NCBI GenBank assembly: GCA_047456295.1
Contig: CP179887.1
Span: 45,944 to 109,943 of the forward strand
DNA from: Candidatus Nealsonbacteria bacterium
GTDB lineage: Bacteria > Patescibacteriota > Minisyncoccia > Minisyncoccales > JANBVM01
Reading direction: 5' to 3'
Length of the DNA stretch: 64,000 bases
The translations under genes and the position numbers were made by a program. The notes under the pieces are model-generated. The model was not told where the DNA came from and searched no databases. It worked only from the letters and a program-made list of their open reading frames with translations. Of the stretch, positions 3,342-59,925 are shown piece after piece (the stretch's first letter is position 1; each line of letters starts with the position of its first letter).

Positions 3342-3470
3342 TCTTAATATTATATTTATTTAATAGCTTGTCTGCAAGTTTTTGGGGTTTAACCTCATAC
3401 AAAGATTTGCAAACTTTAAGACTTTAAATTATACTTAAATTGGATTTCCATAATTTTTAAGCCCAAAGAT

Positions 3471-4469
3471 ATGAAAATTGGCGTTGATTTAGGAACCTGT
3501 AATTCGGTTGTTTTTATTCCCAAGAAAGGAGTGGTTTTACAAGAGCCATCAGTGGTAGCTGTAGCTTTGGCAGAGAATGAGATTTTAGCTGTGGGAAGAG
3601 AAGCCAAAGAAATGATGGGCAGGACCCCTGATACCATCAAGATATACCGTCCACTTAGAGACGGGGTGATTGCTGATTTCAGGGTTACCCAGGCCATGCT
3701 TAAATATTTTATTGATAAAGCCCTGGGTAGATTTCGACCTTTTAAGCCTGATTTAATGATTGGTATTCCAGCTGGCATTACCTCTACTGAGAGGAGAGCA
3801 GTAATTGAAGCTGGCATGAATGCCGGAGCCAGGGCAGTTTATTTGGCAAAAGAACCAATCCTGGCAGCTGTGGGAGCCAATGTTCCTATCAATAGCTGCT
3901 CGGGCAATATGATTCTTGATATTGGAGGAGGAACATCTGAAGCTGCAGTAATTTCTCTGGGAGGAATTGTCAATTTTCATTCCATAAGGGTAGCTGGAGA
4001 TAAAATGGACCTGGCTATCTCTGATTACATTAAGAAAAAATACAATTTAGCCATCGGACAACAAACAGCCGAAGAAATAAAAAAAAGAATTGGTACAGCC
4101 TTACCTGATAAAGAAGAGAAAAGGATGGATATCAAGGGAAGGGATATGGCTCTGGGTTTGCCAAAGAACATTAAGATTTCATCAAACGATGTCTGTATGG
4201 CCTTATCTGATATTCTTTCAGAGATTATTCAGATGATTAAAATAGTGCTTCGGGATACTCCTCCTGAGCTCTCAGCTGACATACTGAACAAGGGTATGGT
4301 AATGACAGGGGGAGCTTCTTTGCTGAATAAGTTTCCAGCATTAATTGCCAGATCAATCGGTGTTCCAGCTATCTTAGCTGATGATTCCATTTTATGCGTA
4401 GCAAAAGGAACAGGAATAATGCTGGAAAATCTTGATCTCTACAAGAAAACCATAATGAGTAAGAAATAA
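3471..4469 (+). CDS. mreB: MreB-like actin homolog (divergent paralog)
   Basis: IGVDLGTCNS phosphate-1 motif; DIGGGTSE; collinear with second mreB at 8267. Confidence 0.8.
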   Translation: MKIGVDLGTCNSVVFIPKKGVVLQEPSVVAVALAENEILAVGREAKEMMGRTPDTIKIYRPLRDGVIADFRVTQAMLKYFIDKALGRFRPFKPDLMIGIPAGITSTERRAVIEAGMNAGARAVYLAKEPILAAVGANVPINSCSGNMILDIGGGTSEAAVISLGGIVNFHSIRVAGDKMDLAISDYIKKKYNLAIGQQTAEEIKKRIGTALPDKEEKRMDIKGRDMALGLPKNIKISSNDVCMALSDILSEIIQMIKIVLRDTPPELSADILNKGMVMTGGASLLNKFPALIARSIGVPAILADDSILCVAKGTGIMLENLDLYKKTIMSKK

Positions 4470-4470
4470 G

Positions 4471-5331
4471 GTGGTGGCTTTCATGATTATCGGTCATAAA
4501 AAACAACAACAATTTTTAAAAAAAATAATTAGCTCAAGAGAAATTCCCCATGCTTTATTGTTTACAGGTCCGGAAGGATTGGGAAAAAAGACAATAGCTT
4601 TACAATTCCTTTCTTCTCTTTTTGGAGAAAAACTCTTTCAACATCCTGATTTCAGTTTAATTACCCCTATAACAAAGCAGATTCAAATTAACCAGATCAG
4701 AGACCTCAGATGGAGATTATCTTTAAAACCAATTAAGGCCCCTCTTTTGGGAGCTGTTGTTGATAAAGCCCATTTAATGACCAGGGAAGCCCAAAACTGT
4801 TTTTTAAAGACCCTGGAGGAGCCCAAAAGCAGAAGCCTTTTAATTTTAATTAGTGAATATCCAAATTACCTTTTATCTACCATTGTTTCCAGGTGCGAAA
4901 AGATTAAGTTTTATCAGGTGGAAAATAGAGAAATAACCAGTTACCTGGAGAAAAAAAAGGTTTCCAAAGAAAAGATTGAGGAGATTGTTGAAATTTCTCT
5001 GGGAAGACCGGGAAGGGCTGTTAATATATTGCAAAACCCGGAGAAGTTGGAAGAAAGGAAAAAAAAGATAAGAGAGTTAATTAAGATTTCAGGTTCTCCT
5101 CTGTCTTTACGCTTTAAATATGTCAAGGAATTAGCCCAGCAGCAGGACTTGAAAGAAACCCTGGGCATTTGGTTGTTCTACTTCAGGAAGGGTTTAATTT
5201 CCTGTAGAAACCGCACAGAATTAATAAAGATAAAAAATATTCTTAAGGCCGTACAAGAAACAATGTTTTTACTTTCAACCACAAACGTCAATCCCAGGTT
5301 AGCCTTGGAAATATTAACAATGAAACTATAG
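4471..5331 (+). CDS. holB: DNA polymerase III delta-prime subunit
   Basis: HALLFTGPEGLGKKT P-loop-like clamp-loader motif, 286 aa. Confidence 0.75.
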   Translation: MVAFMIIGHKKQQQFLKKIISSREIPHALLFTGPEGLGKKTIALQFLSSLFGEKLFQHPDFSLITPITKQIQINQIRDLRWRLSLKPIKAPLLGAVVDKAHLMTREAQNCFLKTLEEPKSRSLLILISEYPNYLLSTIVSRCEKIKFYQVENREITSYLEKKKVSKEKIEEIVEISLGRPGRAVNILQNPEKLEERKKKIRELIKISGSPLSLRFKYVKELAQQQDLKETLGIWLFYFRKGLISCRNRTELIKIKNILKAVQETMFLLSTTNVNPRLALEILTMKL

Positions 5332-5339
5332 ATATTATT

Positions 5340-5912
5340 ATGGGTGAGGATAAGGTATCATATAAAGAAATTATTGAGAAGATTAAGCCTGAACTGGAAA
5401 AGGTCATCAATTTTTTGAGCAGGGAGTTGCAAAAGATTAGGACCGAGAGAGCTTCACCTTCTCTGGTGGAGGATATTAAGGTTGATTATTTTGGACAGAC
5501 ATTTTCTTTAAAACAATTAGCTGCAATATCCATTCCTTTTCCCAGAGAGATTCTCATTCAACCATGGGATAAATCATATATTGAAGAGATTGTAAAAGCC
5601 CTGGAAAAGAGCAGTATTGGAGCAAATCCTGTAGTTGATAGACACGTAATCAGAATCACCATGCCTTCCCTGAGCGAGGAATTCAGAAAGGATTTGATTA
5701 ATCTTACATCTGAAAAACAGGAACAGGCAAAAAGAACAATCAGGAAATGGAGGGATGAGGCCTGGGGGGAGATACAGGAAAGCTTTAGACAGGGAAAGAT
5801 GAGCGAGGATGATAAGTTTAAAGGAAAAGACGAATTGCAGGATTTGATTGATGATTTTCAGGAGAAGATTAAGGAAATGGTGGAGAAAAAGAAAAAAGAA
5901 ATAGAGAGTTAA
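5340..5912 (+). CDS. frr: ribosome recycling factor
   Basis: 190 aa; characteristic RRF sequence (VEDIKVDYFGQ...IRITMPSLSEE). Confidence 0.9.
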   Translation: MGEDKVSYKEIIEKIKPELEKVINFLSRELQKIRTERASPSLVEDIKVDYFGQTFSLKQLAAISIPFPREILIQPWDKSYIEEIVKALEKSSIGANPVVDRHVIRITMPSLSEEFRKDLINLTSEKQEQAKRTIRKWRDEAWGEIQESFRQGKMSEDDKFKGKDELQDLIDDFQEKIKEMVEKKKKEIES

Positions 5913-5922
5913 ACATTAAAAC

Positions 5923-7005
5923 ATGACGATTTTAACCCTTGCCATTGCTTTTTTTAGTCTTATTAGCTTGATAATTATCCACGAGTTGGGTCATTTTTTA
6001 TTGGCTAAGAAATTCGGTGTCAGGGTTGAAGAATTCGGCATAGGTTATCCTCCCCGTTTGATTGGGAAAAAAATAGGAGAAACCATTTATTCTTTAAATC
6101 TTCTGCCTTTTGGTGCTTTTGTACGCTTTCCCGGAGAGATTAAAAGGAAAGATGATCCTGGCAGTTTTTCTCAACAACCAGTGGAAAAAAGGTTTTTAAT
6201 TTCTTTGGGAGGAGTGCTTTCTTTTTGGATAATAGCAATTCTTCTTTTTGGTATTGTCTTTAGTATTGGTGCTCCGGTCATGGTTGAAGATGAAGATGTT
6301 TCTGGTTTAACTGAATCTGAGATCAGGATTGCTGGCATAGCTTTAAATTCACCTGCTGACAGGGCAGGTATTAAGATAGGAGATACAATAAAAGAATTAT
6401 TAGCTGGCAATGACAGATTAATCCCTGTAAAGATAAAAGAGGTGCAGGATTTTACAAATTCTCATTTAGGACAAGAGATTAAACTGACAATTGAGAGGGA
6501 ACAGGATTTTTTTGAAATATCCTTGATTGCCAGGTCCTCGCCTCCAGCTGGAGAAGGATCCATGGGTGTGATGTTGGTCAGGACAGCAATTCAAAAATAT
6601 CCCTGGTATCTGTCTCCCTGGCAGGGAATTTTAGCTACTGTAAGAACCACCTTTCTTATTATTAAAGGCTATATGACAGCCATTGGAAATATTTTTCAGG
6701 GGTCAGCTTCAGGGGTTCAATTAGCAGGACCTGTGGGTGTTTTTCAGATGTTAATCCAGAGCCAGCAGTTAGGATTAGCTTATTTCTTAAACTTTCTGGC
6801 TTTAATTTCTCTTCATTTAGCCATATTTAATCTTCTGCCTATTCCAGCAGTAGACGGAGGTAAGATGCTTTTTTTAGGCATTGAAGCTGTAAGGAAAAAA
6901 CCTGTTTCTGAAAATATCGAACAGAACATTACTGCTTTTTCCTTCATCATATTGCTTGTTTTAATGGTTTGGGTAACAATAAATGATATAACTAGGTTGT
7001 TTTAA
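5923..7005 (+). CDS. rseP: RIP site-2 zinc metalloprotease (M50) with PDZ domain
   Basis: HELGHF HExxH motif in first TM; central PDZ; C-terminal LLPIPAVDGG motif. Confidence 0.85.
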   Translation: MTILTLAIAFFSLISLIIIHELGHFLLAKKFGVRVEEFGIGYPPRLIGKKIGETIYSLNLLPFGAFVRFPGEIKRKDDPGSFSQQPVEKRFLISLGGVLSFWIIAILLFGIVFSIGAPVMVEDEDVSGLTESEIRIAGIALNSPADRAGIKIGDTIKELLAGNDRLIPVKIKEVQDFTNSHLGQEIKLTIEREQDFFEISLIARSSPPAGEGSMGVMLVRTAIQKYPWYLSPWQGILATVRTTFLIIKGYMTAIGNIFQGSASGVQLAGPVGVFQMLIQSQQLGLAYFLNFLALISLHLAIFNLLPIPAVDGGKMLFLGIEAVRKKPVSENIEQNITAFSFIILLVLMVWVTINDITRLF

Positions 7006-7008
7006 TAT

Positions 7009-8259
7009 ATGAGGCAATCTCAACTTTTTACAAAAACAATCAGAAAGGCACCCAGAGATGAAAAAAGCATAAATTCACGGCTTTTAATAAAAGCTGGTTT
7101 TATTGATAAATTAATGGCAGGGGTTTATTCTTATCTGCCCCTGGGGTTTCGGGTTTTAAAAAGAATTGAGAATATTATTCGGGAAGAAATGAATGGAATC
7201 TTAGGACAGGAGATTCTTTTGCCTGCTCTTCATCCCAGGAGCAGGTGGGAGACAACAAGAAGATGGAAGGAACAGATTATGTTTAAATTAAAGACTCGGG
7301 GGAAAAAAGATTATGGTTTGGGTTGGACCCACGAAGAGATTATCACTCCTCTGGTTAAAACCTTTGTTCAGTCATATAAGGACCTGCCTGTTTATGTTTA
7401 TCAGATCCAGGATAAATTCAGGGATGAGCTGCGGGCCAAGTCAGGGTTGTTAAGAGGGATAGAGTTTATAATGAAAGATCTTTATTCTTTTCACCAGGAT
7501 GAGAAGGATTTAGACAGATATTATGAGAAGGTAAAAGGAGCTTATTCCAGGATTTTTAAGAGATGTAAGATAGGCAGACAAACCTTTTTGACTTTAGCTT
7601 CAGGTGGGACTTTCAGCAAGTATTCTCATGAATTTCAAACCATAACCCCTTATGGCGAAGACTTGATATATCTTTGTAAGAAATGTAAGTTAGCTGTCAA
7701 TAAAGAGATTATAAAGGAGCAGAAATATAAATGTCCCAAATGTAAAAGCAAGAAGTTAGAGACTAAAAAAACCGTTGAAGTAGGAAATATTTTTAAACTA
7801 AAAGACAGGTTCAGTAAGGCATTTAATTTGAAATTTAAAGACAGGAATGGAAAAGAAAAAATGGTATTGATGGGTTCTTATGGTATTGGGCTGAGTCGAT
7901 TATTGGGTGCCATTGTGGAGGTCAACCACGATAAAAAAGGAATTATCTGGTCAGAAGAGACAACCCCTTTTCAGACTCATTTAATTTGTCTTAAAGACAC
8001 TTTAAAAACAAGGAAAACAGCTGAAAAACTATATCAGGATTTAAGCAAAAAAGGATTTGACCTGTTGTATGACGATAGAAAAGACAAGTCTCCAGGGAAG
8101 AAATTTGCAGATTGTGATTTAATAGGCATTCCCATCAGGCTTGTTATTTCTGAAAAAACCTTGAAAAAGAATTCCATTGAGGTTAAAAAAAGAAGAGAAG
8201 ATAAAATAAAATTAATAAAAATAACTGATTTAAGTAAGTTTTTAAAAAAGATAGTTTAA
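7009..8259 (+). CDS. proS: prolyl-tRNA synthetase, short form without editing domain, with Cys4 zinc-ribbon insertion
   Basis: N-terminus MRQSQLF...; class II motifs 2 (FRDELRAKSGLLRGIEF) and 3 (GSYGIGLSRLLGAIVE); CKKCK...CPKCKSKK insertion; 416 aa. Confidence 0.85.
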   Translation: MRQSQLFTKTIRKAPRDEKSINSRLLIKAGFIDKLMAGVYSYLPLGFRVLKRIENIIREEMNGILGQEILLPALHPRSRWETTRRWKEQIMFKLKTRGKKDYGLGWTHEEIITPLVKTFVQSYKDLPVYVYQIQDKFRDELRAKSGLLRGIEFIMKDLYSFHQDEKDLDRYYEKVKGAYSRIFKRCKIGRQTFLTLASGGTFSKYSHEFQTITPYGEDLIYLCKKCKLAVNKEIIKEQKYKCPKCKSKKLETKKTVEVGNIFKLKDRFSKAFNLKFKDRNGKEKMVLMGSYGIGLSRLLGAIVEVNHDKKGIIWSEETTPFQTHLICLKDTLKTRKTAEKLYQDLSKKGFDLLYDDRKDKSPGKKFADCDLIGIPIRLVISEKTLKKNSIEVKKRREDKIKLIKITDLSKFLKKIV

Positions 8260-8266
8260 TGAAACC

Positions 8267-9310
8267 ATGTTGAAAAAAGCCCTTAAAGCATTATCAGATG
8301 ACATTGCAATTGATCTGGGTACAGCCAACTCCGTGGTTTATGTGCGGGGAAGGGGTATTGTAATGCAAGAACCCTCCATAGTAGCTGTCAATCAAAAAAC
8401 AGGTCAGATATTGGCAATTGGTTCTGAAGCCAAAAGAATGGTAGGCAGAACCCCATCTCACATTGTAGCCACCAGACCATTAAAGGCAGGAGTGATTTCT
8501 GATTTTGAGATTACAGAACAAATGCTCAGGTATTTTATTGAAAAGACCAGAAAGAAAAAATGGATTAGACCAAGGGTTATTATTGGAATACCATCTGGAG
8601 TAACACAGGTGGAAAAAAGAGCGGTTATTGATGCTACCAGGTCAGCTGGAGCAAGGGAGGTTTTTTTGATTGACGAACCCATGGCATCTGCTATTGGAGC
8701 CCGTCTTCCTGTTCAGGAACCAGGTGGCAACTTTGTCATTGATATCGGGGGAGGGACAACAGAGGTGGCAATCATTTCTTTGGGAGGAATAGTTTTATCA
8801 AAGAGCTTGAGGGTAGCTGGAGATAAACTAAACGAAGACATCGTGCTCTTTGCCCAAGAAGAGTACAAATTATTAATTGGTGAAAGGACGGCTGAGTCAA
8901 TTAAGATTGCCATAGGTTCAGCTTACCCTTTAAAAGATAAAAAAGAGATTCCAATGAGGGGTAGAAACCTGGTTACCGGTCTTCCTGAAGAGGTTTTGAT
9001 TTCCAACAAGGACGTGAAAAGAGCAATGGATAAATCAATTAATCGGATTGTAACTGAAATTAAAACAGCCATTGAAGAGACTCCGCCTGAACTGCTGGCT
9101 GATATAATGACAAAAGGAATATATATGGCAGGAGGAGGTTCTCTTTTAAAAGGATTGGATGTGTTGATTCAGAAAGAAACAAGGATTCCGACAAATATCA
9201 TTGAAGACCCCATGACAGCTGTGGTAAGGGGAGCAGGAATGGTATTGGAGAATTTGGATGAGCTGCACGAGGTATTGTTAGAAACATGGGAGTTGGAACC
9301 CCCAAAATAA
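8267..9310 (+). CDS. mreB: rod-shape protein MreB
   Basis: IAIDLGTANS; DIGGGTTEVAI; full-length 347 aa. Confidence 0.9.
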   Translation: MLKKALKALSDDIAIDLGTANSVVYVRGRGIVMQEPSIVAVNQKTGQILAIGSEAKRMVGRTPSHIVATRPLKAGVISDFEITEQMLRYFIEKTRKKKWIRPRVIIGIPSGVTQVEKRAVIDATRSAGAREVFLIDEPMASAIGARLPVQEPGGNFVIDIGGGTTEVAIISLGGIVLSKSLRVAGDKLNEDIVLFAQEEYKLLIGERTAESIKIAIGSAYPLKDKKEIPMRGRNLVTGLPEEVLISNKDVKRAMDKSINRIVTEIKTAIEETPPELLADIMTKGIYMAGGGSLLKGLDVLIQKETRIPTNIIEDPMTAVVRGAGMVLENLDELHEVLLETWELEPPK

Positions 9311-11677: not shown

Positions 11678-11689
11678 ATGGACATAGAC

Positions 11690-11758
11690 GCGGTGTGGAG
11701 GAGTAGTACCTCGCCAGTCCCATAAGCTGGAGGCCCTGGTGCAATTCCAGGCACCGCA
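11690..11758 (+). tRNA. tRNA with CAT anticodon (Met or Ile2-type), non-canonical T-loop
   Basis: acceptor GCGGTG/CACCGC; anticodon stem CCAGT/GCTGG with loop CCCATAA; T-arm CCTGG-TGCAATT-CCAGG; position 33 is C and T-loop is atypical. Confidence 0.5.
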
Positions 11759-11760
11759 AG

Positions 11761-11833
11761 GCCGGTGTAGCTCAATGGTTAGAGCAATTGCATCATAAGC
11801 AAGAGGTTACAGGTTCGAGTCCCGTCACCGGCA
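11761..11833 (+). tRNA. tRNA-Met (CAT)
   Basis: GCCGGTG acceptor, D-arm GCTC-AATGGTT-GAGC, anticodon loop ATCATAA, T-arm ACAGG-TTCGAGT-CCCGT. Confidence 0.8.
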
Positions 11834-11860
11834 TAAAAATTTACTTTATAATTTTCATAT

Positions 11861-11934
11861 GGGGACGTAGCTCAATTGGTTAGAGCTCGTGATTGTCGAT
11901 CACGAGGTTGCGAGTTCGAGTCTCGTCGTCCCCG
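11861..11934 (+). tRNA. tRNA-Asp (GTC)
   Basis: GGGGACG acceptor; anticodon loop TTGTCGA; T-arm GCGAG-TTCGAGT-CTCGT; discriminator G. Confidence 0.85.
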
Positions 11935-11942
11935 AATTTTCA

Positions 11943-50655: not shown

Positions 50656-50720
50656 CATTTATCGCTATTGATAAATTAAGAAAGACAAGGTAAACTGTTA
50701 AAGTATTCAATATTACTCTT

Positions 50721-50804
50721 GGGTGGTTGGCGGAGCAGACAAACGCATCAGACTGTAAATCTGACGGCCACTGGCCTACGGGGGTGCAAATCCCTCACCA
50801 CCCA
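50721..50804 (+). tRNA. tRNA-Tyr (GTA)
   Basis: GGGTGGT/ACCACCC acceptor; anticodon loop CTGTAAA; long variable arm. Confidence 0.75.
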
Positions 50805-50892
50805 TAAATAACTTTTACAAAACACTGTTACCAAAGAAAAAATTAGAAAAATTGTATAAGAGTGGTTTGTCAATGCAAGAAATTTCTAATAA

Positions 50893-50965
50893 GCCGAGAT
50901 AGCTCAGATGGTAGAGCATTTCCGTGGTAAGGAAAAGGTCACGAGTTCGATCCTCGTTCTCGGCT
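50893..50965 (+). tRNA. tRNA-Thr (GGT)
   Basis: GCCGAGA acceptor; D-arm GCTC-AGATGGT-GAGC; anticodon loop GTGGTAA; T-arm ACGAG-TTCGATC-CTCGT. Confidence 0.8.
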
Positions 50966-50982
50966 TAAAGTATTAAAAATAT

Positions 50983-51147
50983 ATGGCAAAAAGAAGAAAA
51001 CCTTTTGTAAAAATGATGTGTACTGATTGTAAAAGAATTAATTATTACACTCACAAATCAAAGAAGATGGTGGGGGAGAAGTTAGAATTGAAGAAATTCT
51101 GTAAGTGGTGCAAGAAACACACTTTACATAAAGAAACAAAGAAGTAA
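50983..51147 (+). CDS. rpmG: 50S ribosomal protein L33
   Basis: MAKRRKPFVKMMCTDCKRINYYTHKSKK...CKWCKKHTLHKETKK; 54 aa, below the ORF-track length cutoff. Confidence 0.85.
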   Translation: MAKRRKPFVKMMCTDCKRINYYTHKSKKMVGEKLELKKFCKWCKKHTLHKETKK

Positions 51148-51227
51148 GATAAGAATATATGGGGGCGTTGGTTAATAGACGAACTGCTTCTGATTTTTGC
51201 AAAGGCATTACAAAAAATATTTGTATT

Positions 51228-51301
51228 GGGGGTGTAGTGAAGTGGTATCATTGGAATCTCCAAAATTCCAGTCGGGGGTTCGATTCCCTCCGCCCCTGCC
51301 A
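51228..51301 (+). tRNA. tRNA-Trp (CCA), 3' CCA encoded
   Basis: anticodon stem GGAAT/ATTCC with loop CTCCAAA; T-arm GGGGG-TTCGATT-CCCTC. Confidence 0.75.
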
Positions 51302-56160: not shown

Positions 56161-56577
56161 ATGACAAGAAGAATTGCTATTTTTGCCCCTTCTGGAGTTG
56201 GTAAATCAACACTAATTAAGATTGCCTTAAAACAAGGGATAAAGGCTTATGATTTTGAAGATTTCTCTTCTCAAGAAAGAATAAAAAAAGCTCAAGAAAT
56301 TCTCAAGAAGGATTTTAATGACATTGTATTGTTTAATGCGGGAGATTTACAAACTAAAGATTTCCCGTTTGATGTTGAACTGGTATTGCTTTTACCTCCT
56401 AAAGATATTTATTTGAAGCGTTTAAAAAAGCGCGACAAATTAAATCCAGAGAAAAAAGGCCAACAAGGGAATATGAAGTATGAGATATTTTTTTAAAAAA
56501 AGAACATTTTTCATAGAATTATTAAAGATACAGGAACAGCGGATGAAATTTTAGATAAGATATTAAAAAGTTTATGA
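56161..56577 (+). pseudogene. P-loop kinase paralog interrupted by in-frame TAA at codon 112
   Basis: collinear with 57269..57685 over 138 codons; TAA at 56494..56496 aligns with the Ser of TST in the paralog; downstream in-frame RIIKDTGTADEILDKILKSL matches the paralog C-terminus. Confidence 0.7.
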
Positions 56578-57044
56578 ACATAAAAGTTTTTATTGAGAAT
56601 AAAGCAGGGTCTAATCAAAAAAATATCTATGATGAAAAAACCTTGCAATATAAGAAAACTGTAATAATCTCAAGGAAATATCCATATCCCTATGGTTTCG
56701 TTTTGAATACCACAAGTGGGGATGGTGATAATGTAGATTGTTTTGTGTTAACAAACAAAAAACTTAAAACTGGTGAAATCGTTGAGTGTAAACCTATTGC
56801 CATGATGGAGCAAATAGAGTCTTATTCTGCAGAGCCAGGAATAGAGGAAGAAGACCACAATGTCTTAGCTGTTTTAGAGGGTGAAAGTTTTGAAATAGAC
56901 GATATATTAAAGAATAAACTGTCTGAATTTGTTTCACATGCCTTTGACCATTTACCAGATAAAAAAGTTAAAGTAGGAAATTTCTTAGATGAAAAAAAGA
57001 CTATAGAGTATATAGAAAAATGTAGAGATGCTATTAATCTTTAA
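56574..57044 (+). CDS. family I inorganic pyrophosphatase-like protein
   Basis: KYPYPYGFVLNTTSGDGDNVDCFVL resembles the PPase DGDPLDVLV core. Confidence 0.65.
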   Translation: MNIKVFIENKAGSNQKNIYDEKTLQYKKTVIISRKYPYPYGFVLNTTSGDGDNVDCFVLTNKKLKTGEIVECKPIAMMEQIESYSAEPGIEEEDHNVLAVLEGESFEIDDILKNKLSEFVSHAFDHLPDKKVKVGNFLDEKKTIEYIEKCRDAINL

Positions 57045-57268: not shown

Positions 57269-57685
57269 ATGAAAAGAAGAATTGCCATCTTTGGTCCTCC
57301 TGGTGTTGGTAAGTCAACCCTAATTAAGCTCGCTATAAAAAGAGGAATAAAGGCCTTTGATTTCGAAGATTTTCCTGAGGAAGAAACATTAAGGCGAGTC
57401 AAAGAAATCTTCAAAAAAGTTCCTGATGACATTGTATTGTATGGTGCGGCTGGCTTACAGACTTATGATTTCCCACAGGATGTAGAACTGGTGTTGGTTC
57501 TGCCACCTAAAGATATTTATTTAGAGCGTATAAAGGAGCGGGATACAGTAAATCCAGCTAAAGTAGGCCAGAACCATTTGGAATGGTATGATGGCTATAC
57601 AAGTACTAAGAATCGTTATCATAAAGTTATTAGTGAGACAGGAAGTCCCAATGAAGTTTTAGATAAAATATTAGAAGATTTATGA
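57269..57685 (+). CDS. small P-loop kinase-like protein
   Basis: IAIFGPPGVGKSTLIKL Walker A; 138 aa. Confidence 0.65.
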   Translation: MKRRIAIFGPPGVGKSTLIKLAIKRGIKAFDFEDFPEEETLRRVKEIFKKVPDDIVLYGAAGLQTYDFPQDVELVLVLPPKDIYLERIKERDTVNPAKVGQNHLEWYDGYTSTKNRYHKVISETGSPNEVLDKILEDL

Positions 57686-58653: not shown

Positions 58654-58930
58654 TTATGGACAAAATGAAACAAGAAAGCACGGTCAATTTGATTATATAA
58701 AAAGCATTGGATGCTACCTAGACAGTGTGTGAACCGACATCAATATCCTTGTATAGTTCAAGAACGCGTACCGATGCAGCAAGCGGAAGCGATTGAAATT
58801 TTAAAGACTATTTTATCTAAAGACCATTAAAACAGGTTCTAACCTCGTCCAGCCCCCGGAGTCAGCTTGTGCTCGGTTCGAGGGACCGAGACACTTTCGG
58901 TTCGAATCCTAACCCCACAGATGGTAAAAT

Positions 58931-58961
58931 CAAGCTTGAAAGAAGCTTGCTTTTTTATTAA
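58931..58961 (+). terminator. intrinsic terminator
   Basis: caagctt-gaaag-aagcttg followed by CTTTTTT. Confidence 0.6.
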
Positions 58962-58989
58962 ATTTAGGGAAAGGTTAAAATAGTGACTT

Positions 58990-59925
58990 ATGGAGATAAA
59001 AAACACAAAACCATCTTTTCGTTGTGTGTTACATGGAAGTTTCCGCAAATACTGGGATTTAATTAAAAGAACACATCGTATCTTTACTGAAGCCGGTATA
59101 GAAGTTTTGGCGCCTCGTGAAACAGAAATAACTTCTTCTACAGAAGGCTTCGCATTTTTAGAAGGTGAAGAAGATAAAGACCCTCGGATGGTTGAGTTGC
59201 TATATCTGCATAATCTTAAACGATTAGGGGAAAACGGTTTTAGTTATTTTGTAGATCCAGAAGGATACATAGGCAAAAGTGCATCTTATGAACTTGGCAT
59301 TGCACAAGTTACAAATATAAGGTGCTTCTTCTTCGATACCCCAAGGGACCACCCAGCTTATATTCATAGAAATGCTATTTGGAAACCTGAAAACCTCACT
59401 ACATTTATACGAGAGAAAGGAAGATTACCTGAGCCTCAAGTAGAGCCGGACAAACAAAAGATTCATAAGCTTTGGGAAGATTTAATGGTACCTGGTTCTG
59501 TAGTAGCTGCGGGAGGCATTATTGAGTATGACTCTGATAAAAAAGAGAAAGAAATTCTTTTAGTAAAGACTCATAAGTGGAAAGGACGATATTCGATTGT
59601 GGGGGGTAAGCTTCGCAGAAATGAAAGACTTGAAGATGCTTTACTTAGAGAAGTTAAAGAAGAAACAGGATTGGTAGGAAGGGTTGGAGAACATCTTTGC
59701 ACTTTTGACCAGATAAAAAACTCTGGTTATTACTTGCCTGGAATACAACATATTTTTGTTGATAATGTAGTTCATGTTAGAAGTAAACACGTTCGTTTGA
59801 ATGAAGAAGCAGAAGATTATATTTGGATACCAGCACGAATTGCGCTTCGTGAACTTTCAATAGAACCAAATGCTCGTCATACACTTCAATTATATGCTGA
59901 CAGCTTTTCTGTGTTAAGTAACTGA
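58990..59925 (+). CDS. fusion: nucleoside 2-deoxyribosyltransferase-like N-domain + Nudix hydrolase C-domain
   Basis: Nudix box GGKLRRNERLEDALLREVKEETGL; N-terminal flavodoxin-like NDT-type region (VLAP...SYELGIA). Confidence 0.6.
   Translation: MEIKNTKPSFRCVLHGSFRKYWDLIKRTHRIFTEAGIEVLAPRETEITSSTEGFAFLEGEEDKDPRMVELLYLHNLKRLGENGFSYFVDPEGYIGKSASYELGIAQVTNIRCFFFDTPRDHPAYIHRNAIWKPENLTTFIREKGRLPEPQVEPDKQKIHKLWEDLMVPGSVVAAGGIIEYDSDKKEKEILLVKTHKWKGRYSIVGGKLRRNERLEDALLREVKEETGLVGRVGEHLCTFDQIKNSGYYLPGIQHIFVDNVVHVRSKHVRLNEEAEDYIWIPARIALRELSIEPNARHTLQLYADSFSVLSN

What the first reader, a model, noticed from the sequence alone, without database searches (positions are those of the whole stretch)
58990..59925. 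Nucleoside 2-deoxyribosyltransferase-like domain fused to a Nudix hydrolase
The C-terminal half has a canonical Nudix box (GGKLRRNERLEDALLREVKEETGL). The N-terminal ~150 aa resemble the NDT/flavodoxin-like fold (VLAP, SYELGIA). This combination is rare and suggests coupled base exchange and pyrophosphohydrolysis on unusual nucleotides, in line with the neighbouring kinases and PPase.
Basis: partly seen in the sequence, partly recalled or inferred. Interest (0 to 1): 0.55.

Follow-up and report, generated by a model that had tools for sequence, protein, structure and literature searches.

The report
NDT-like/Nudix fusion enzyme of ultra-small microbes
This gene encodes a very strongly conserved two-domain enzyme of ultra-small symbiotic bacteria (CPR) and archaea (DPANN) that most likely strips the phosphates from a nucleotide with one half and cuts off its base with the other, and databases label it only as "Nudix".

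Summary
ORF 58990-59925(+) encodes 311 aa with a canonical Nudix domain (PF00293, E=4e-13, box G206-L228). Its N-terminal ~145-aa domain gets no hit in Pfam or NCBIfam.

- 32 of 125 relatives hit PF05014.
- A pLDDT-95 model ranks N-deoxyribosyltransferases first in two structure libraries.
- The invariant E101 aligns with the NDT/DNPH1/MilB nucleophile.

The domain is not a classical nucleoside transferase. It has the GS-x-R loop and a Gly in place of the 5'-OH-binding Asp, as in the NMP N-glycosidases DNPH1 and MilB. It lacks the catalytic Tyr.

Relatives of the N-domain are repeatedly fused to NTP pyrophosphohydrolases of unrelated folds (MazG, Nudix). The characterised phage DmtZ-DutZ fusion has the same logic.

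Best explanation: a two-step enzyme, (d)NTP-like substrate -> (d)NMP -> base + (deoxy)ribose-5-P.

The neighbouring "kinases and PPase" are not a conserved context.

New findings: the family spans Patescibacteria and a distinct DPANN clade, and it is more conserved than MreB in the same genomes.

Verdict: new variant of a known kind, moderately interesting, biochemically untested.

The parts
58990..59925 (+). Whole gene: 311-aa two-domain protein (NDT/DNPH1-like domain + linker helix + Nudix domain)
   Evidence: ORF list. 737 full-length homologs at 66-95% identity. Alignment A1 has 70 invariant columns spread over both halves.
59017..59424 (+). N-terminal domain, residues ~10-145: divergent NDT/DrHyd-superfamily Rossmannoid domain (beta-alpha repeats with an inserted beta-hairpin at 47-57)
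   Evidence: No Pfam or NCBIfam hit of its own. 487 relatives by exhaustive phmmer. 32 of 125 relatives hit PF05014. AF2 model pLDDT 95.4, pTM 0.90. Foldseek ranks NDTs first in the PDB and BFVD.
59035..59049 (+). G16-S17-F18-R19-K20 loop after strand 1: predicted ribose/5'-phosphate-binding loop (aligns with DNPH1 G27-S28-I29-R30)
   Evidence: G16 and S17 are at least 97% conserved in 77 genomes and nearly invariant in 125 distant relatives. hhalign aligns GSFR with GSIR. In rat DNPH1 the backbone N atoms of Ile18-Arg19-Gly20 bind the phosphate and Gly16 contacts the ribose (PMC3834327).
59263..59304 (+). G92-Y-I-G95-K-S97-A-S-Y-E101-L-G103-I-A105: catalytic-Glu motif. E101 is the predicted nucleophile. 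G95 occupies the position of DNPH1 S98, MilB S97 and NDT D92.
   Evidence: E101 is the only invariant column among 125 distant relatives. It aligns with Rcl E93, DNPH1 E104 and NDT E98 and with the MilB/BlsM catalytic Glu. G95 aligns with the MilB phosphate-binding Ser.
59425..59499 (+). Conserved linker, residues 146-170 (LPxP...IHKLWEDLMVPGS), with a helix at 153-165 that is confidently modelled together with the N-domain
   Evidence: L146, P147, P149, I158, L161, W162, L165, P168, G169 and S170 are invariant or nearly invariant. Helix 153-165 appears in the pLDDT-95 model.
59500..59889 (+). Nudix hydrolase domain, residues ~171-300
   Evidence: PF00293 E=4.2e-13. Foldseek E=2e-10 to Ap4A hydrolase 3i7u, MutT1 5gg5, NudI 6dt3 and CTPase 2rrk/3gwy. 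phmmer gives NudI 3n77 at E=6.8e-7.
59605..59673 (+). Nudix box G206-X5-E212-X7-R220-E221-V-K-E224-E225-T-G227-L228 (metal-binding catalytic helix)
   Evidence: Read directly from the sequence. E212, R220, E224 and E225 are at least 97% conserved in 77 genomes, including the DPANN-labelled ones.

Best explanation
The gene encodes a bifunctional, two-step nucleotide-degrading enzyme.

Step 1 (domain identity shown, chemistry inferred): the C-terminal Nudix domain hydrolyses the pyrophosphate linkage of a nucleoside triphosphate, nucleoside diphosphate-X or dinucleoside-polyphosphate type substrate. This releases a nucleoside 5'-monophosphate (ribo or deoxy).

Step 2 (inferred): the N-terminal domain is a divergent member of the NDT superfamily of the DNPH1/Rcl/MilB type. 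It binds that 5'-monophosphate through the G16-S-F-R-K loop and the small residue G95. E101 attacks C1' as the nucleophile, which releases the free base and gives (deoxy)ribose 5-phosphate. Alternatively the sugar phosphate is passed to another base.

The net effect is irreversible removal of a nucleotide from the pool. That serves either sanitation of non-canonical nucleotides or harvesting of bases and sugar phosphate. The hosts are CPR bacteria and DPANN archaea, which are reported not to make nucleotides de novo.

The gene is a stand-alone housekeeping gene, not part of an operon or a defence island.
For: Domain identities:
- Nudix: PF00293 E=4e-13 and fold E=2e-10.
- N-domain: 32 of 125 relatives hit PF05014 over the homologous region. 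NDTs rank first in two structure libraries with a pLDDT-95 model. All four PDB sequences reached by the subgroup profile are NDT-superfamily enzymes, led by the CMP N-glycosidase MilB.

Active sites:
- Both look intact and are at least 97% conserved in 77 genomes: G16, S17, D64, R66, E69, G92, G95, E101; and E212, R220, E224, E225.

NMP rather than nucleoside substrate:
- GSFR aligns with DNPH1 GSIR.
- G95 sits where DNPH1 and MilB have the phosphate-binding Ser and NDT has the 5'-OH-binding Asp (PMC3834327; PMC12884076).

Functional coupling:
- The same N-domain family is independently fused to MazG or MazG-like domains (20 of 125) and to Nudix (at least 10 of 125), on either side. These are two unrelated NTP-pyrophosphohydrolase folds.
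- A third fold, dUTPase-like DutZ, is fused to the NDT-like DmtZ in phages. There dATP -> dAMP -> base release/transfer was shown biochemically (PMC12884076).
- The Nudix half is closest to (d)NTP/ApnA hydrolases (NudI, MutT1, Ap4A hydrolase, CTPase), which produce NMPs.

Housekeeping role:
- Exceptional conservation: 64-68% identity against 27-56% for other window proteins in the same genomes, in 30 of 30 pairs.
- Variable housekeeping neighbourhoods.
Against: - No activity was measured, and substrate identity cannot be read from Nudix sequences.
- The query itself gives no PF05014 hit. Direct profile-to-sequence scores against DNPH1, Rcl, NDT and MilB are weak: 5-16 bits, hhalign probability at most 10% against single sequences, best PDB E=0.06.
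- Foldseek TM-scores are only 0.45-0.60, and no PDB hit reaches E<=1e-3.
- Two of the three NDT catalytic-triad residues are not conserved at the aligned columns. Tyr is replaced by V13/I13. The Asp column holds Y72, although an invariant E69 lies one helical turn earlier.
- Some relatives have Gln at position 69.
- The full-length model is poor (pLDDT 71, pTM 0.52), so nothing can be said about channelling between the two sites.
Confidence: 0.5

Rival explanations
1. Base-exchange enzyme. The N-domain is a (deoxy)ribose-5-phosphate transferase like phage DmtZ. It moves the sugar phosphate from the NMP made by the Nudix domain onto a different free base. This would let organisms without de novo synthesis interconvert nucleotides without PRPP. 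It is closest to the first reader's idea.
For: DmtZ, fused to a dNTP pyrophosphatase, both hydrolyses dAMP and transfers dR5P to another base (PMC12884076). The family has an invariant Pro (P42, 'VLAP/VLSP') just after strand 2. That paper describes a Pro conserved in transferases that shields the active site from water. The covalent Glu mechanism allows either outcome.
Against: The equivalence of P42 to the transferase Pro was not established. The P57A mutation in DmtZ did not abolish transfer. The catalytic Tyr shared by NDT transferases and DmtZ is absent here (V13). No base-salvage genes are conserved nearby.
Confidence: 0.15
2. NAD/ADP-ribose pathway. The N-domain acts as a DrHyd-type NADase or NMN nucleosidase, and the Nudix domain as an ADP-ribose or NADH pyrophosphatase. 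Together they catabolise NAD+ or ADPr derivatives.
For: Members of the DrHyd (NDT) superfamily include NADases and ADP-ribosyl cyclases, and Nudix domains commonly process ADPr (PMC9503650). JGI names some family members 'ADP-ribose pyrophosphatase YjhB'. One locus has an NMNAT-like gene nearby.
Against: ADPr pyrophosphatases are not among the top 50 structural matches of the Nudix half, and its best sequence matches are NTP/ApnA hydrolases. The recurrent alternative partner is MazG, an NTP pyrophosphohydrolase with no known ADPr role. The JGI name is a generic COG label. NAD genes are not conserved neighbours.
Confidence: 0.1
3. Regulatory N-domain. The NDT-like domain is a non-catalytic nucleotide sensor or oligomerisation module, and it only controls a conventional house-cleaning Nudix hydrolase.
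For: The TIR-DrHyd-SLOG clade includes inactive ligand-sensing versions (PMC9503650). Two of the three classical triad residues are not at the expected columns. In DNPH1 the Glu also hydrogen-bonds the ribose hydroxyls (PMC3834327), so its conservation alone does not prove catalysis.
Against: Glu101 is the single invariant column across 125 distant relatives. About 40% of those relatives are stand-alone proteins of ~130-170 aa that must function on their own. The N-domain is almost as conserved as the Nudix half: mean top-residue frequency 0.67 against 0.73. Fusion to three different PPase folds suggests consecutive reactions more than regulation.
Confidence: 0.15
4. Anti-phage defence effector that depletes nucleotides on infection.
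For: Other branches of the N-domain family are fused to conflict-system domains: SMEK_N with an Argonaute-associated PADLOC model, a CAP12/Pycsar TIR, SLOG, PIN and HSDR_N. The Nudix half weakly matches a PADLOC candidate model, PDC-S07.
Against: The gene is single-copy and stand-alone in variable housekeeping neighbourhoods, with no partner gene. It is far more conserved than is typical of defence genes, exceeding MreB. The PDC-S07 hit covers only the generic Nudix box region.
Confidence: 0.05

Closest known systems
DNPH1/Rcl (2'-deoxynucleoside 5'-phosphate N-hydrolase) and MilB/BlsM (CMP / hydroxymethyl-CMP N-glycosidases), the NMP-specific branch of the NDT superfamily
   Same: Rossmannoid fold. 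The Glu nucleophile lies in a 'Y/I-E-x-G-x-A' helix (E101 vs E104 / E103). The G-S-x-R loop follows strand 1. A small uncharged residue replaces the 5'-OH-binding Asp of NDTs (G95 vs S98 / S97). Possible lid salt-bridge pair R19/D64, like Rcl R19/D62. MilB is the best PDB sequence hit of the subgroup profile (PMC10603095, PMC3834327).
   Different: No Pfam PF05014 hit. The Tyr (DNPH1) or Phe (MilB) at the end of strand 1 is Val/Ile here. The general-acid Asp column is Tyr, with an invariant Glu one turn earlier. There is an extra beta-hairpin (47-57) and an invariant D120-H-P-x-Y124 segment. The domain is fused to Nudix. Known members are single-domain.
Phage DmtZ-DutZ fusion (NDT-like dAMP hydrolase / dR5P transferase + dUTPase-like dATP pyrophosphatase), PMC12884076
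   Same: The same two-step logic in one polypeptide: an NDT-like domain at the N-terminus and a dNTP pyrophosphohydrolase at the C-terminus. The 5'-phosphate pocket is built from uncharged space-saving residues.
   Different: The pyrophosphatase fold differs (Nudix instead of dUTPase-like). DmtZ keeps the Tyr-Asn-Glu triad. DmtZ-DutZ is a phage Z-genome device, whereas this is a cellular gene conserved throughout CPR and DPANN. No sequence similarity was detected between them here.
Classical nucleoside 2'-deoxyribosyltransferases (PF05014; Lactobacillus NDT/PDT, Chroococcidiopsis NDT)
   Same: Best structural matches in the PDB and BFVD. Shared Glu nucleophile motif. Relatives of the N-domain hit PF05014.
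   Different: It lacks Tyr7, and it lacks Asp92/Asn123, which bind the 5'-OH. It is therefore unlikely to act on nucleosides. It falls below Pfam thresholds.
House-cleaning Nudix (d)NTP/ApnA pyrophosphohydrolases (NudI, MutT1, NudG/ORF135, Aquifex Ap4A hydrolase)
   Same: Canonical Nudix box and fold. These are the best sequence and structure matches of the C-terminal half. MutT1 is likewise a two-domain enzyme that processes a nucleotide in successive steps.
   Different: It scores far below every NCBIfam equivalog cut-off (e.g. NudI 30 bits against 95). It has family-specific invariant motifs (T194-H-K-W197, T238-F-D-Q241, S245-G-Y247). Its fusion partner is unique.

Membership tests
Nudix hydrolase superfamily (PF00293) | Nudix box GX5EX7REUXEEXGU | tested here: met
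   G206...E212...R220 E221 V K E224 E225 T G227 L228, read from the translation. The catalytic residues are at least 97% conserved in 77 genomes.
Nudix hydrolase superfamily (PF00293) | Profile HMM score above the Pfam gathering threshold | tested here: met
   49.9 bits against 21.1, E=4.2e-13, residues 176-298.
Nudix hydrolase superfamily (PF00293) | Alpha/beta/alpha Nudix fold | tested here: met
   Foldseek E=2e-10 to 1e-8 and prob 1.00 against many solved Nudix enzymes, although the full-length model is only pLDDT 71.
Specific Nudix equivalogs (NudI, MutT, NudC, ADPRase, RppH) | Score above the NCBIfam equivalog cut-off | tested here: not met
   The best is NudI at 30.2 bits against a cut-off of 95. 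All others are lower. Substrate class is therefore unassigned.
Nucleoside 2-deoxyribosyltransferase Pfam family PF05014 | Profile HMM hit (gathering score 28.8 bits) | tested here: not met
   No hit for the query at E<=10 or for its N-domain alone. 32 of 125 relatives hit at E<0.01 (best 1.2e-6). The four hits shown individually score 17-18 bits, below the cut-off.
NDT / DrHyd superfamily (fold level) | Rossmannoid (flavodoxin-like) alpha/beta fold most similar to NDT/DNPH1 | tested here: met
   The model has pLDDT 95.4. PDB: the top hit is NDT 8pqr (prob 0.98, E=3.7e-3), and DNPH1 9i9q has prob 0.97 with rmsd 3.2 A over 106 columns. BFVD: the top hit is an N-deoxyribosyltransferase (E=1.2e-4, prob 1.00), and 4 of the top 5 are NDT-annotated. 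Caveat: TM-scores are 0.45-0.60, and TIR and RpiB folds are interleaved among the PDB hits.
NDT / DrHyd superfamily | Catalytic Glu nucleophile in the helix after strand 4 (...E-x-G-x-A) | tested here: met
   E101 is invariant in 125 distant relatives. It aligns with Rcl E93, DNPH1 E104 and NDT E98 and with the Glu of MilB, BlsM and 6evs.
NDT / DrHyd superfamily | Catalytic Tyr at the end of strand 1 (NDT Y7, DNPH1 Y24, DmtZ Y6) | tested here: not met
   The aligned column is V13 (Val/Ile in the family; S/T/A/V in relatives). MilB has Phe at this position and prefers ribonucleotides (PMC10603095).
NDT / DrHyd superfamily | General acid Asp/Asn on helix 3 (NDT D72, DNPH1 D80, DmtZ N77) | tested here: inconclusive
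   hhalign places Y72 at the DNPH1 D80 column. An invariant E69 lies three residues (one helical turn) earlier, but it is Gln in some relatives. A structural superposition with ligand is needed.
DNPH1/MilB-type NMP N-glycosidases | 5'-phosphate pocket: G-S-x-R loop after strand 1, and a small uncharged residue instead of NDT Asp92 | tested here: met
   G16-S17-F18-R19 aligns with DNPH1 G27-S28-I29-R30. G95 aligns with DNPH1 S98 and the MilB phosphate-binding Ser. The roles of these residues are taken from PMC3834327, PMC10603095 and PMC12884076.
DNPH1/MilB-type NMP N-glycosidases | Homodimer with a second-subunit residue completing the phosphate site; N-glycosidase activity on NMP/dNMP | not testable with these tools
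   No multimer prediction or assay is available. In the global hhalign alignment to human DNPH1, the invariant D120-H-P-x-Y124 segment lies over the S128' region. That is a lead only.
TIR domain / SLOG (sister superfamilies) | Profile hit to TIR or SLOG/LOG families for the N-domain itself | tested here: not met
   There is no such Pfam hit for the query. TIR structures appear in Foldseek at lower rank and TM-score. The TIR and SLOG Pfam hits among relatives belong to separate fused domains.

The most novel reading that the evidence does not exclude
This is a signature enzyme of the two great lineages of ultra-small episymbionts (CPR bacteria and DPANN archaea). It is kept under stronger constraint than MreB. 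It converts scavenged or damaged (deoxy)nucleoside polyphosphates in one polypeptide into free base plus (deoxy)ribose-5-phosphate, or swaps the base at the nucleotide level without PRPP. It would then be a central and so far unrecognised node of nucleotide economy in organisms that cannot synthesise nucleotides. It would also be a natural phospho(deoxy)ribosyl-transferase/hydrolase with biocatalytic interest.
Probability: 0.3. Interest if true: 0.75.

Novelty: new variant of a known kind. Interest (0 to 1): 0.6.

Why it matters
- Databases label hundreds of these proteins simply 'NUDIX domain-containing protein', so half of the protein is unannotated.
- Recognising the N-terminal half as a DNPH1/MilB-like domain turns an anonymous Nudix into a testable two-step pathway in one polypeptide.
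- The family is among the most conserved proteins of CPR genomes sampled here, and it is shared with a distinct DPANN clade. Both groups are reported to lack de novo nucleotide synthesis. The enzyme is therefore a good candidate for a key step in how these symbionts clean or recycle nucleotides taken from hosts or the environment.
- The N-domain is independently fused to three unrelated NTP-pyrophosphatase folds (Nudix, MazG, dUTPase-like). This generalises the 'pyrophosphatase + N-glycosidase' module beyond the phage Z-genome case.
- Natural NMP-level glycosidases and transferases are also sought as biocatalysts for nucleotide analogue synthesis.

Tried and rejected
1. A direct Pfam/NCBIfam assignment of the N-domain gave no hit.
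2. A fold search with the full-length model was swamped by Nudix hits and the model was poor. I re-modelled the N-domain alone with 125 diverse relatives.
3. The profile of all relatives (A2) against PDB sequences gave only weak MazG-type hits from the fused partners and no NDT. The domain-only subgroup profile (A3) then gave four hits, all in the NDT superfamily but individually non-significant.
4. Local hmmsearch/hhalign against DNPH1, Rcl and L. leichmannii NDT used sequences recalled from memory. Their catalytic positions matched the numbering used for human DNPH1 (PMC10603095) and rat DNPH1 (PMC3834327), checked. The runs gave sensible motif alignments but low scores, and hhalign failed for LlNDT.
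5. Conserved gene neighbourhood or operon: rejected.
6. Known defence system: PADLOC gives only a generic Nudix candidate match.
7. Gene-fusion artefact: rejected by 737 homologs with the same architecture.
8. The upstream 337-nt spacer as a tRNA, tmRNA or known RNA: ARAGORN and Rfam are negative and the fold z-score is -1.2.
9. Kaminski & Labesse 2013 (PMC3585086), on converting NDT into a phosphodeoxyribosyltransferase, could not be retrieved. The 5'-phosphate determinants are cited from other papers instead.
10. Literature searches found no description of this CPR/DPANN family.
Full report
**1. The observation**

The window carries an ORF at exactly 58990-59925 (+), with an ATG start and 311 aa.

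The last string contains a perfect Nudix box, G206-X5-E212-X7-R220-E221-V-K-E224-E225-T-G227-L228. Pfam NUDIX (PF00293) matches residues 176-298 at E=4.2e-13, 49.9 bits against a gathering score of 21.1. The closest solved sequences are NudI-type nucleoside triphosphatases, at E=6.8e-7.

NCBIfam gives only sub-threshold hits. NudI scores 30 bits against a cut-off of 95, followed by MutT1, NudB and others. This is an orphan Nudix subfamily.

The N-terminal ~165 residues have no hit in Pfam even at E<=10, and none in NCBIfam.

**2. The fusion is real and fixed**

A search of 5.8 billion proteins returned 737 homologs. The best 120 are all 293-333 aa, cover 93-100% of the query and are 66-95% identical. 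Where named, they are called only 'NUDIX domain-containing protein', 'hypothetical protein' or the generic 'ADP-ribose pyrophosphatase YjhB'. They come from Nealson-, Terry-, Giovannoni-, Yanofsky-, Sung- and Daviesbacteria, Paceibacterota and similar groups.

An alignment of 46 of them has 70 invariant columns distributed over both halves and the linker.

**3. What the N-terminal domain is**

An exhaustive phmmer search with residues 1-168 against 1.84 billion cluster representatives found 487 relatives at E<=1e-3. I scanned 124 of these relatives, plus the query's own N-domain, against Pfam:
- 32 hit PF05014 (Nuc_deoxyrib_tr), with a best E-value of 1.2e-6.
- 1 hit DUF4406 and 1 hit DUF7768.

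Where shown individually, the PF05014 stretch coincides with the stretch homologous to the query, although at 17-18 bits it is below the 28.8-bit cut-off.

Modelled alone with these relatives as the alignment, the N-domain gives a very confident AlphaFold2 model (pLDDT 95.4, pTM 0.90). Its order of elements is beta1 - alpha1 - beta2 - beta-hairpin - alpha - beta - alpha - beta - alpha - alpha.

Foldseek results with this model:
- PDB: a nucleoside 2'-deoxyribosyltransferase is ranked first (8pqr, E=3.7e-3, prob 0.98). Human DNPH1 is recovered at prob 0.97, rmsd 3.2 A over 106 columns. No hit reaches E<=1e-3, TM-scores are 0.4-0.5, and TIR, RpiB and flavodoxin-like folds are interleaved.
- BFVD (viral models): the best hit is an 'N-deoxyribosyltransferase' (E=1.2e-4, prob 1.00, TMt 0.60). 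Four of the top five are NDT-annotated. Further down are a 'CMP/hydroxymethyl CMP hydrolase' and a 'dATP/dGTP diphosphohydrolase N-terminal domain-containing protein'.

A domain-only profile of one subgroup of relatives reached only four of 177,635 PDB sequences at E<10. Three are named NDT-superfamily enzymes: MilB CMP N-glycosidase (E=0.062), an N-deoxyribosyltransferase (6evs) and BlsM. The fourth, 7o62, carries no molecule name but shows the same E-x-G-x-A motif, so I count it as NDT-like by inference. In all four the family's invariant Glu is aligned to that Glu motif.

I conclude, with about 0.9 confidence, that the domain is a divergent branch of the NDT ('DrHyd') superfamily within the TIR-DrHyd-SLOG Rossmannoid clade described in PMC9503650. 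It is not a member of Pfam family PF05014 by that family's own threshold.

**4. Which kind of NDT-superfamily enzyme**

E101 is the only invariant column among 125 distant relatives. G16, S17, P42, F54, G92 and G95 are at least 90% conserved.

Local alignments used DNPH1, Rcl and L. leichmannii NDT sequences recalled from memory. Their catalytic positions matched the published numbering for human DNPH1 (PMC10603095) and rat DNPH1 (PMC3834327), as checked. These alignments give the following correspondences:
- E101 falls on the nucleophile: E104 (DNPH1), E93 (Rcl) and E98 (NDT).
- G16-S17-F18-R19 falls on DNPH1 G27-S28-I29-R30.
- G95 falls on DNPH1 S98 and on the phosphate-binding Ser of MilB.

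In rat DNPH1 the phosphate is held by Ser87 and Ser117' and by the backbone of Ile18-Arg19-Gly20 and Gly89. Gly16 and Glu93 hold the ribose (PMC3834327). NMP-specific members lack the Asp/Asn that binds the 5'-OH in true NDTs and carry small uncharged residues instead (PMC12884076).

The family therefore has the signature of enzymes that act on nucleoside 5'-monophosphates, not on nucleosides.

The differences are real:
- The strand-1 Tyr of the Tyr-Asp/Asn-Glu triad is Val/Ile here.
- The column of the general-acid Asp (DNPH1 D80) holds Y72, with an invariant E69 one helical turn earlier.

MilB also lacks the Tyr. It has Phe at this position, and a Phe-to-Tyr mutation shifts its preference toward deoxyribose (PMC10603095). 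Ribonucleotides therefore cannot be excluded as substrates.

**5. Evidence for coupling of the two halves**

Among the scanned relatives of the N-domain:
- About 40% are stand-alone proteins of ~130-170 aa.
- 17 carry MazG and 3 carry MazG-like, which are all-alpha NTP pyrophosphohydrolase domains.
- At least 10 carry Nudix.
- The partner domain occurs on either side of the N-domain.

A few are fused to conflict-system domains: SMEK_N with an Argonaute-associated PADLOC model, a CAP12/Pycsar TIR, SLOG/LOG, PIN and HSDR_N.

Two unrelated pyrophosphohydrolase folds have thus been recruited independently to the same domain. A third case has been characterised biochemically. In PurZ0 phages the NDT-like DmtZ is fused, in 77 of the 85 genomes that carry it, to the dUTPase-like DutZ. 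DutZ converts dATP to dAMP. DmtZ then cleaves dAMP and can transfer deoxyribose-5-phosphate to another base (PMC12884076).

The Nudix half of the present protein is closest in sequence and structure to (d)NTP/ApnA hydrolases. These include NudI, MutT1, Aquifex Ap4A hydrolase, and the CTP pyrophosphohydrolases ORF135 (2rrk) and 3gwy. All of them release NMPs.

This supports a two-step model. Nudix makes the (d)NMP. The N-domain then removes the base, or possibly exchanges it, and yields (deoxy)ribose-5-phosphate.

**6. Genomic context**

In the window, the immediate neighbours are an LD-carboxypeptidase upstream and PCMT, YceG/MltG and DJ-1/PfpI downstream. Further upstream lie an inorganic pyrophosphatase flanked by two small weak P-loop ORFs, and a MacB-type ABC transporter.

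This context is not conserved:
- Three distant homologs lie among unrelated housekeeping genes.
- The 84%- and 75%-identical homologs are not syntenic with the window.
- In a clustering of all neighbouring ORFs from 80 species-representative loci, no neighbouring family occurs in more than 6 loci.

The gene is a stand-alone unit. There are anecdotal associations with other house-cleaning or repair genes: further Nudix genes and Ham1/ITPase in L001/L002, an adjacent Nudix gene in L087, and thioredoxin and MsrB in L003. These are noted but are not statistically supported.

**7. Distribution and conservation (new observations)**

A narrow peptide-pattern scan of one genome per GTDB species found 148 genomes with a relative. 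By record title, the 80 that were kept are spread over Parcubacteria/Paceibacterota lineages, Microgenomates (Daviesbacteria), WWE3, Uhrbacteria and Saccharibacteria. At 49-55% identity they also include records titled Woesearchaeota, Parvarchaeota, Nanoarchaeia and 'archaeon'.

The six archaeal-type sequences form their own cluster. They are 58-66% identical to each other and 49-57% identical to the bacterial sequences. Two of their flanks carry archaeal-flavoured genes: a DRG-type MMR_HSR1+TGS GTPase and a geranylgeranyl reductase. This is consistent with a genuine DPANN clade but is not proof.

A few titles (Gammaproteobacteria, Binatia, Methanosarcinales MAGs) are probably mislabelled bins. 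I did not check them.

Both active-site signatures are retained in every clade. Fifty-one residues are at least 97% conserved across 77 sequences.

In a paired comparison within the same loci, the target is 64-68% identical to the window protein. Other window proteins with homologs there are 27-56% identical. The most conserved of these, at about 55%, is a 331-aa protein that I take to be MreB from its size and its position before four co-conserved downstream ORFs; I did not run a domain scan on it. The target is the more conserved protein in 30 of 30 pairs, by a mean of 28 percentage points. Some comparators may be paralogs, but the five-gene cluster is syntenic in those loci.

**8. Mechanism, rivals, and what is shown versus inferred**

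Shown:
- Domain composition.
- Intact and conserved catalytic motifs.
- Superfamily relationships.
- Recurrent fusion partners.
- Lack of an operon.
- Phyletic spread and strong constraint.

Inferred:
- That the Nudix product is an NMP or dNMP.
- That the N-domain cleaves its glycosidic bond through E101.
- That the physiological role is nucleotide sanitation or salvage.

Rivals:
- A DmtZ-like base-exchange transferase. The invariant P42 is a lead, not a test.
- An NAD/ADPr pathway (DrHyd NADase plus ADPr pyrophosphatase).
- A non-catalytic sensor domain.
- A defence effector.

The evidence for and against each rival is in the respective sections of this report.

**9. Verdict**

The refinement is that the N-domain is DNPH1/MilB-like (NMP-directed), not a classical nucleoside transferase. 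The contextual argument fails.

The architecture is a new variant of a known kind: an NDT-like domain plus an NTP pyrophosphatase, previously characterised only with a dUTPase-like partner in phages. It is unannotated in current databases, restricted to CPR and DPANN, and unusually conserved. That makes it a worthwhile target for biochemistry.

Noticed in passing
window 58654-58989 (especially 58873-58957): The 337-nt spacer upstream of the gene holds a hairpin (ctcggttcgagggaccgag). This is followed by a perfect T-loop-like GGTTCGAATCC at 58899-58916, then a terminator-like stem with a T-run at 58931-58957. ARAGORN and Rfam find no tRNA, tmRNA or known RNA, and the fold z-score is only -1.2. 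It could be a tRNA remnant or an unannotated small RNA.
   Followed up: partly
window 3416-9310; loci L030, L037, L040, L045, L082: The window carries a gene cluster at about 3.4-9.3 kb whose first product is a 331-aa protein. I take the cluster to be mreB-mreC-mreD-PBP2-rodA from ORF sizes and order; no domain scan was run on these ORFs. In four or five other CPR genomes, homologs of these ORFs lie within a few kb of the NDT-like/Nudix gene, whereas in the window they are 50 kb apart. This is too infrequent (at most 6 of 80 loci) to be called linkage.
   Followed up: partly
loci L001/L002 (9319-11348, 12913-) and L087 (8211-8738): In some genomes the gene sits near several further stand-alone Nudix genes. 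L001/L002 have three more Nudix genes, a Ham1/ITPase and an NMNAT-like gene. L087 has a Nudix gene that ends one base before the target's start. This suggests local clustering of nucleotide house-cleaning genes.
   Followed up: no
proteins P0176, P0206, P0189/P0194/P0235/P0255, P0254 (relatives of the N-domain): Other branches of the same N-domain family have different architectures. P0176 (769 aa) has SMEK_N with an Argonaute-associated PADLOC model. P0206 has the N-domain plus SLOG/LOG. P0189 is MazG followed by the N-domain. P0194, P0235 and P0255 have an unknown domain, the N-domain and then MazG. P0254 is Nudix followed by the N-domain (reversed order). The Pfam scan of relatives also found one member with a CAP12/Pycsar TIR domain. 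Part of the family therefore probably serves as effectors in conflict systems.
   Followed up: partly
loci L022, L035, L058, L063, L072, L081, L085 (titled Gammaproteobacteria), L012 (Binatia), L075 (Methanosarcinales): These MAG records carry this CPR/DPANN-type gene under unexpected organism titles. L075 clusters with the DPANN sequences. They are probably mislabelled or chimeric bins rather than true occurrences in those taxa.
   Followed up: no
window 56161-56496 and 57269-57685: Two small ORFs (111 and 138 aa) flank the inorganic pyrophosphatase gene (56574-57044). They have only weak, sub-threshold P-loop hits (AAA_18, MMR_HSR1). Their function is not established.
   Followed up: no
window 11689-11935 and 50720-51301: There are two tRNA clusters: Met-Met-Asp, and Tyr-Thr-Trp. 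The window otherwise looks like a typical low-GC (about 35%) CPR chromosome segment. It carries RNase HII, L32, NusB, RNase III, S16, KhpA, TrmD, L10 and L7/L12.
   Followed up: no
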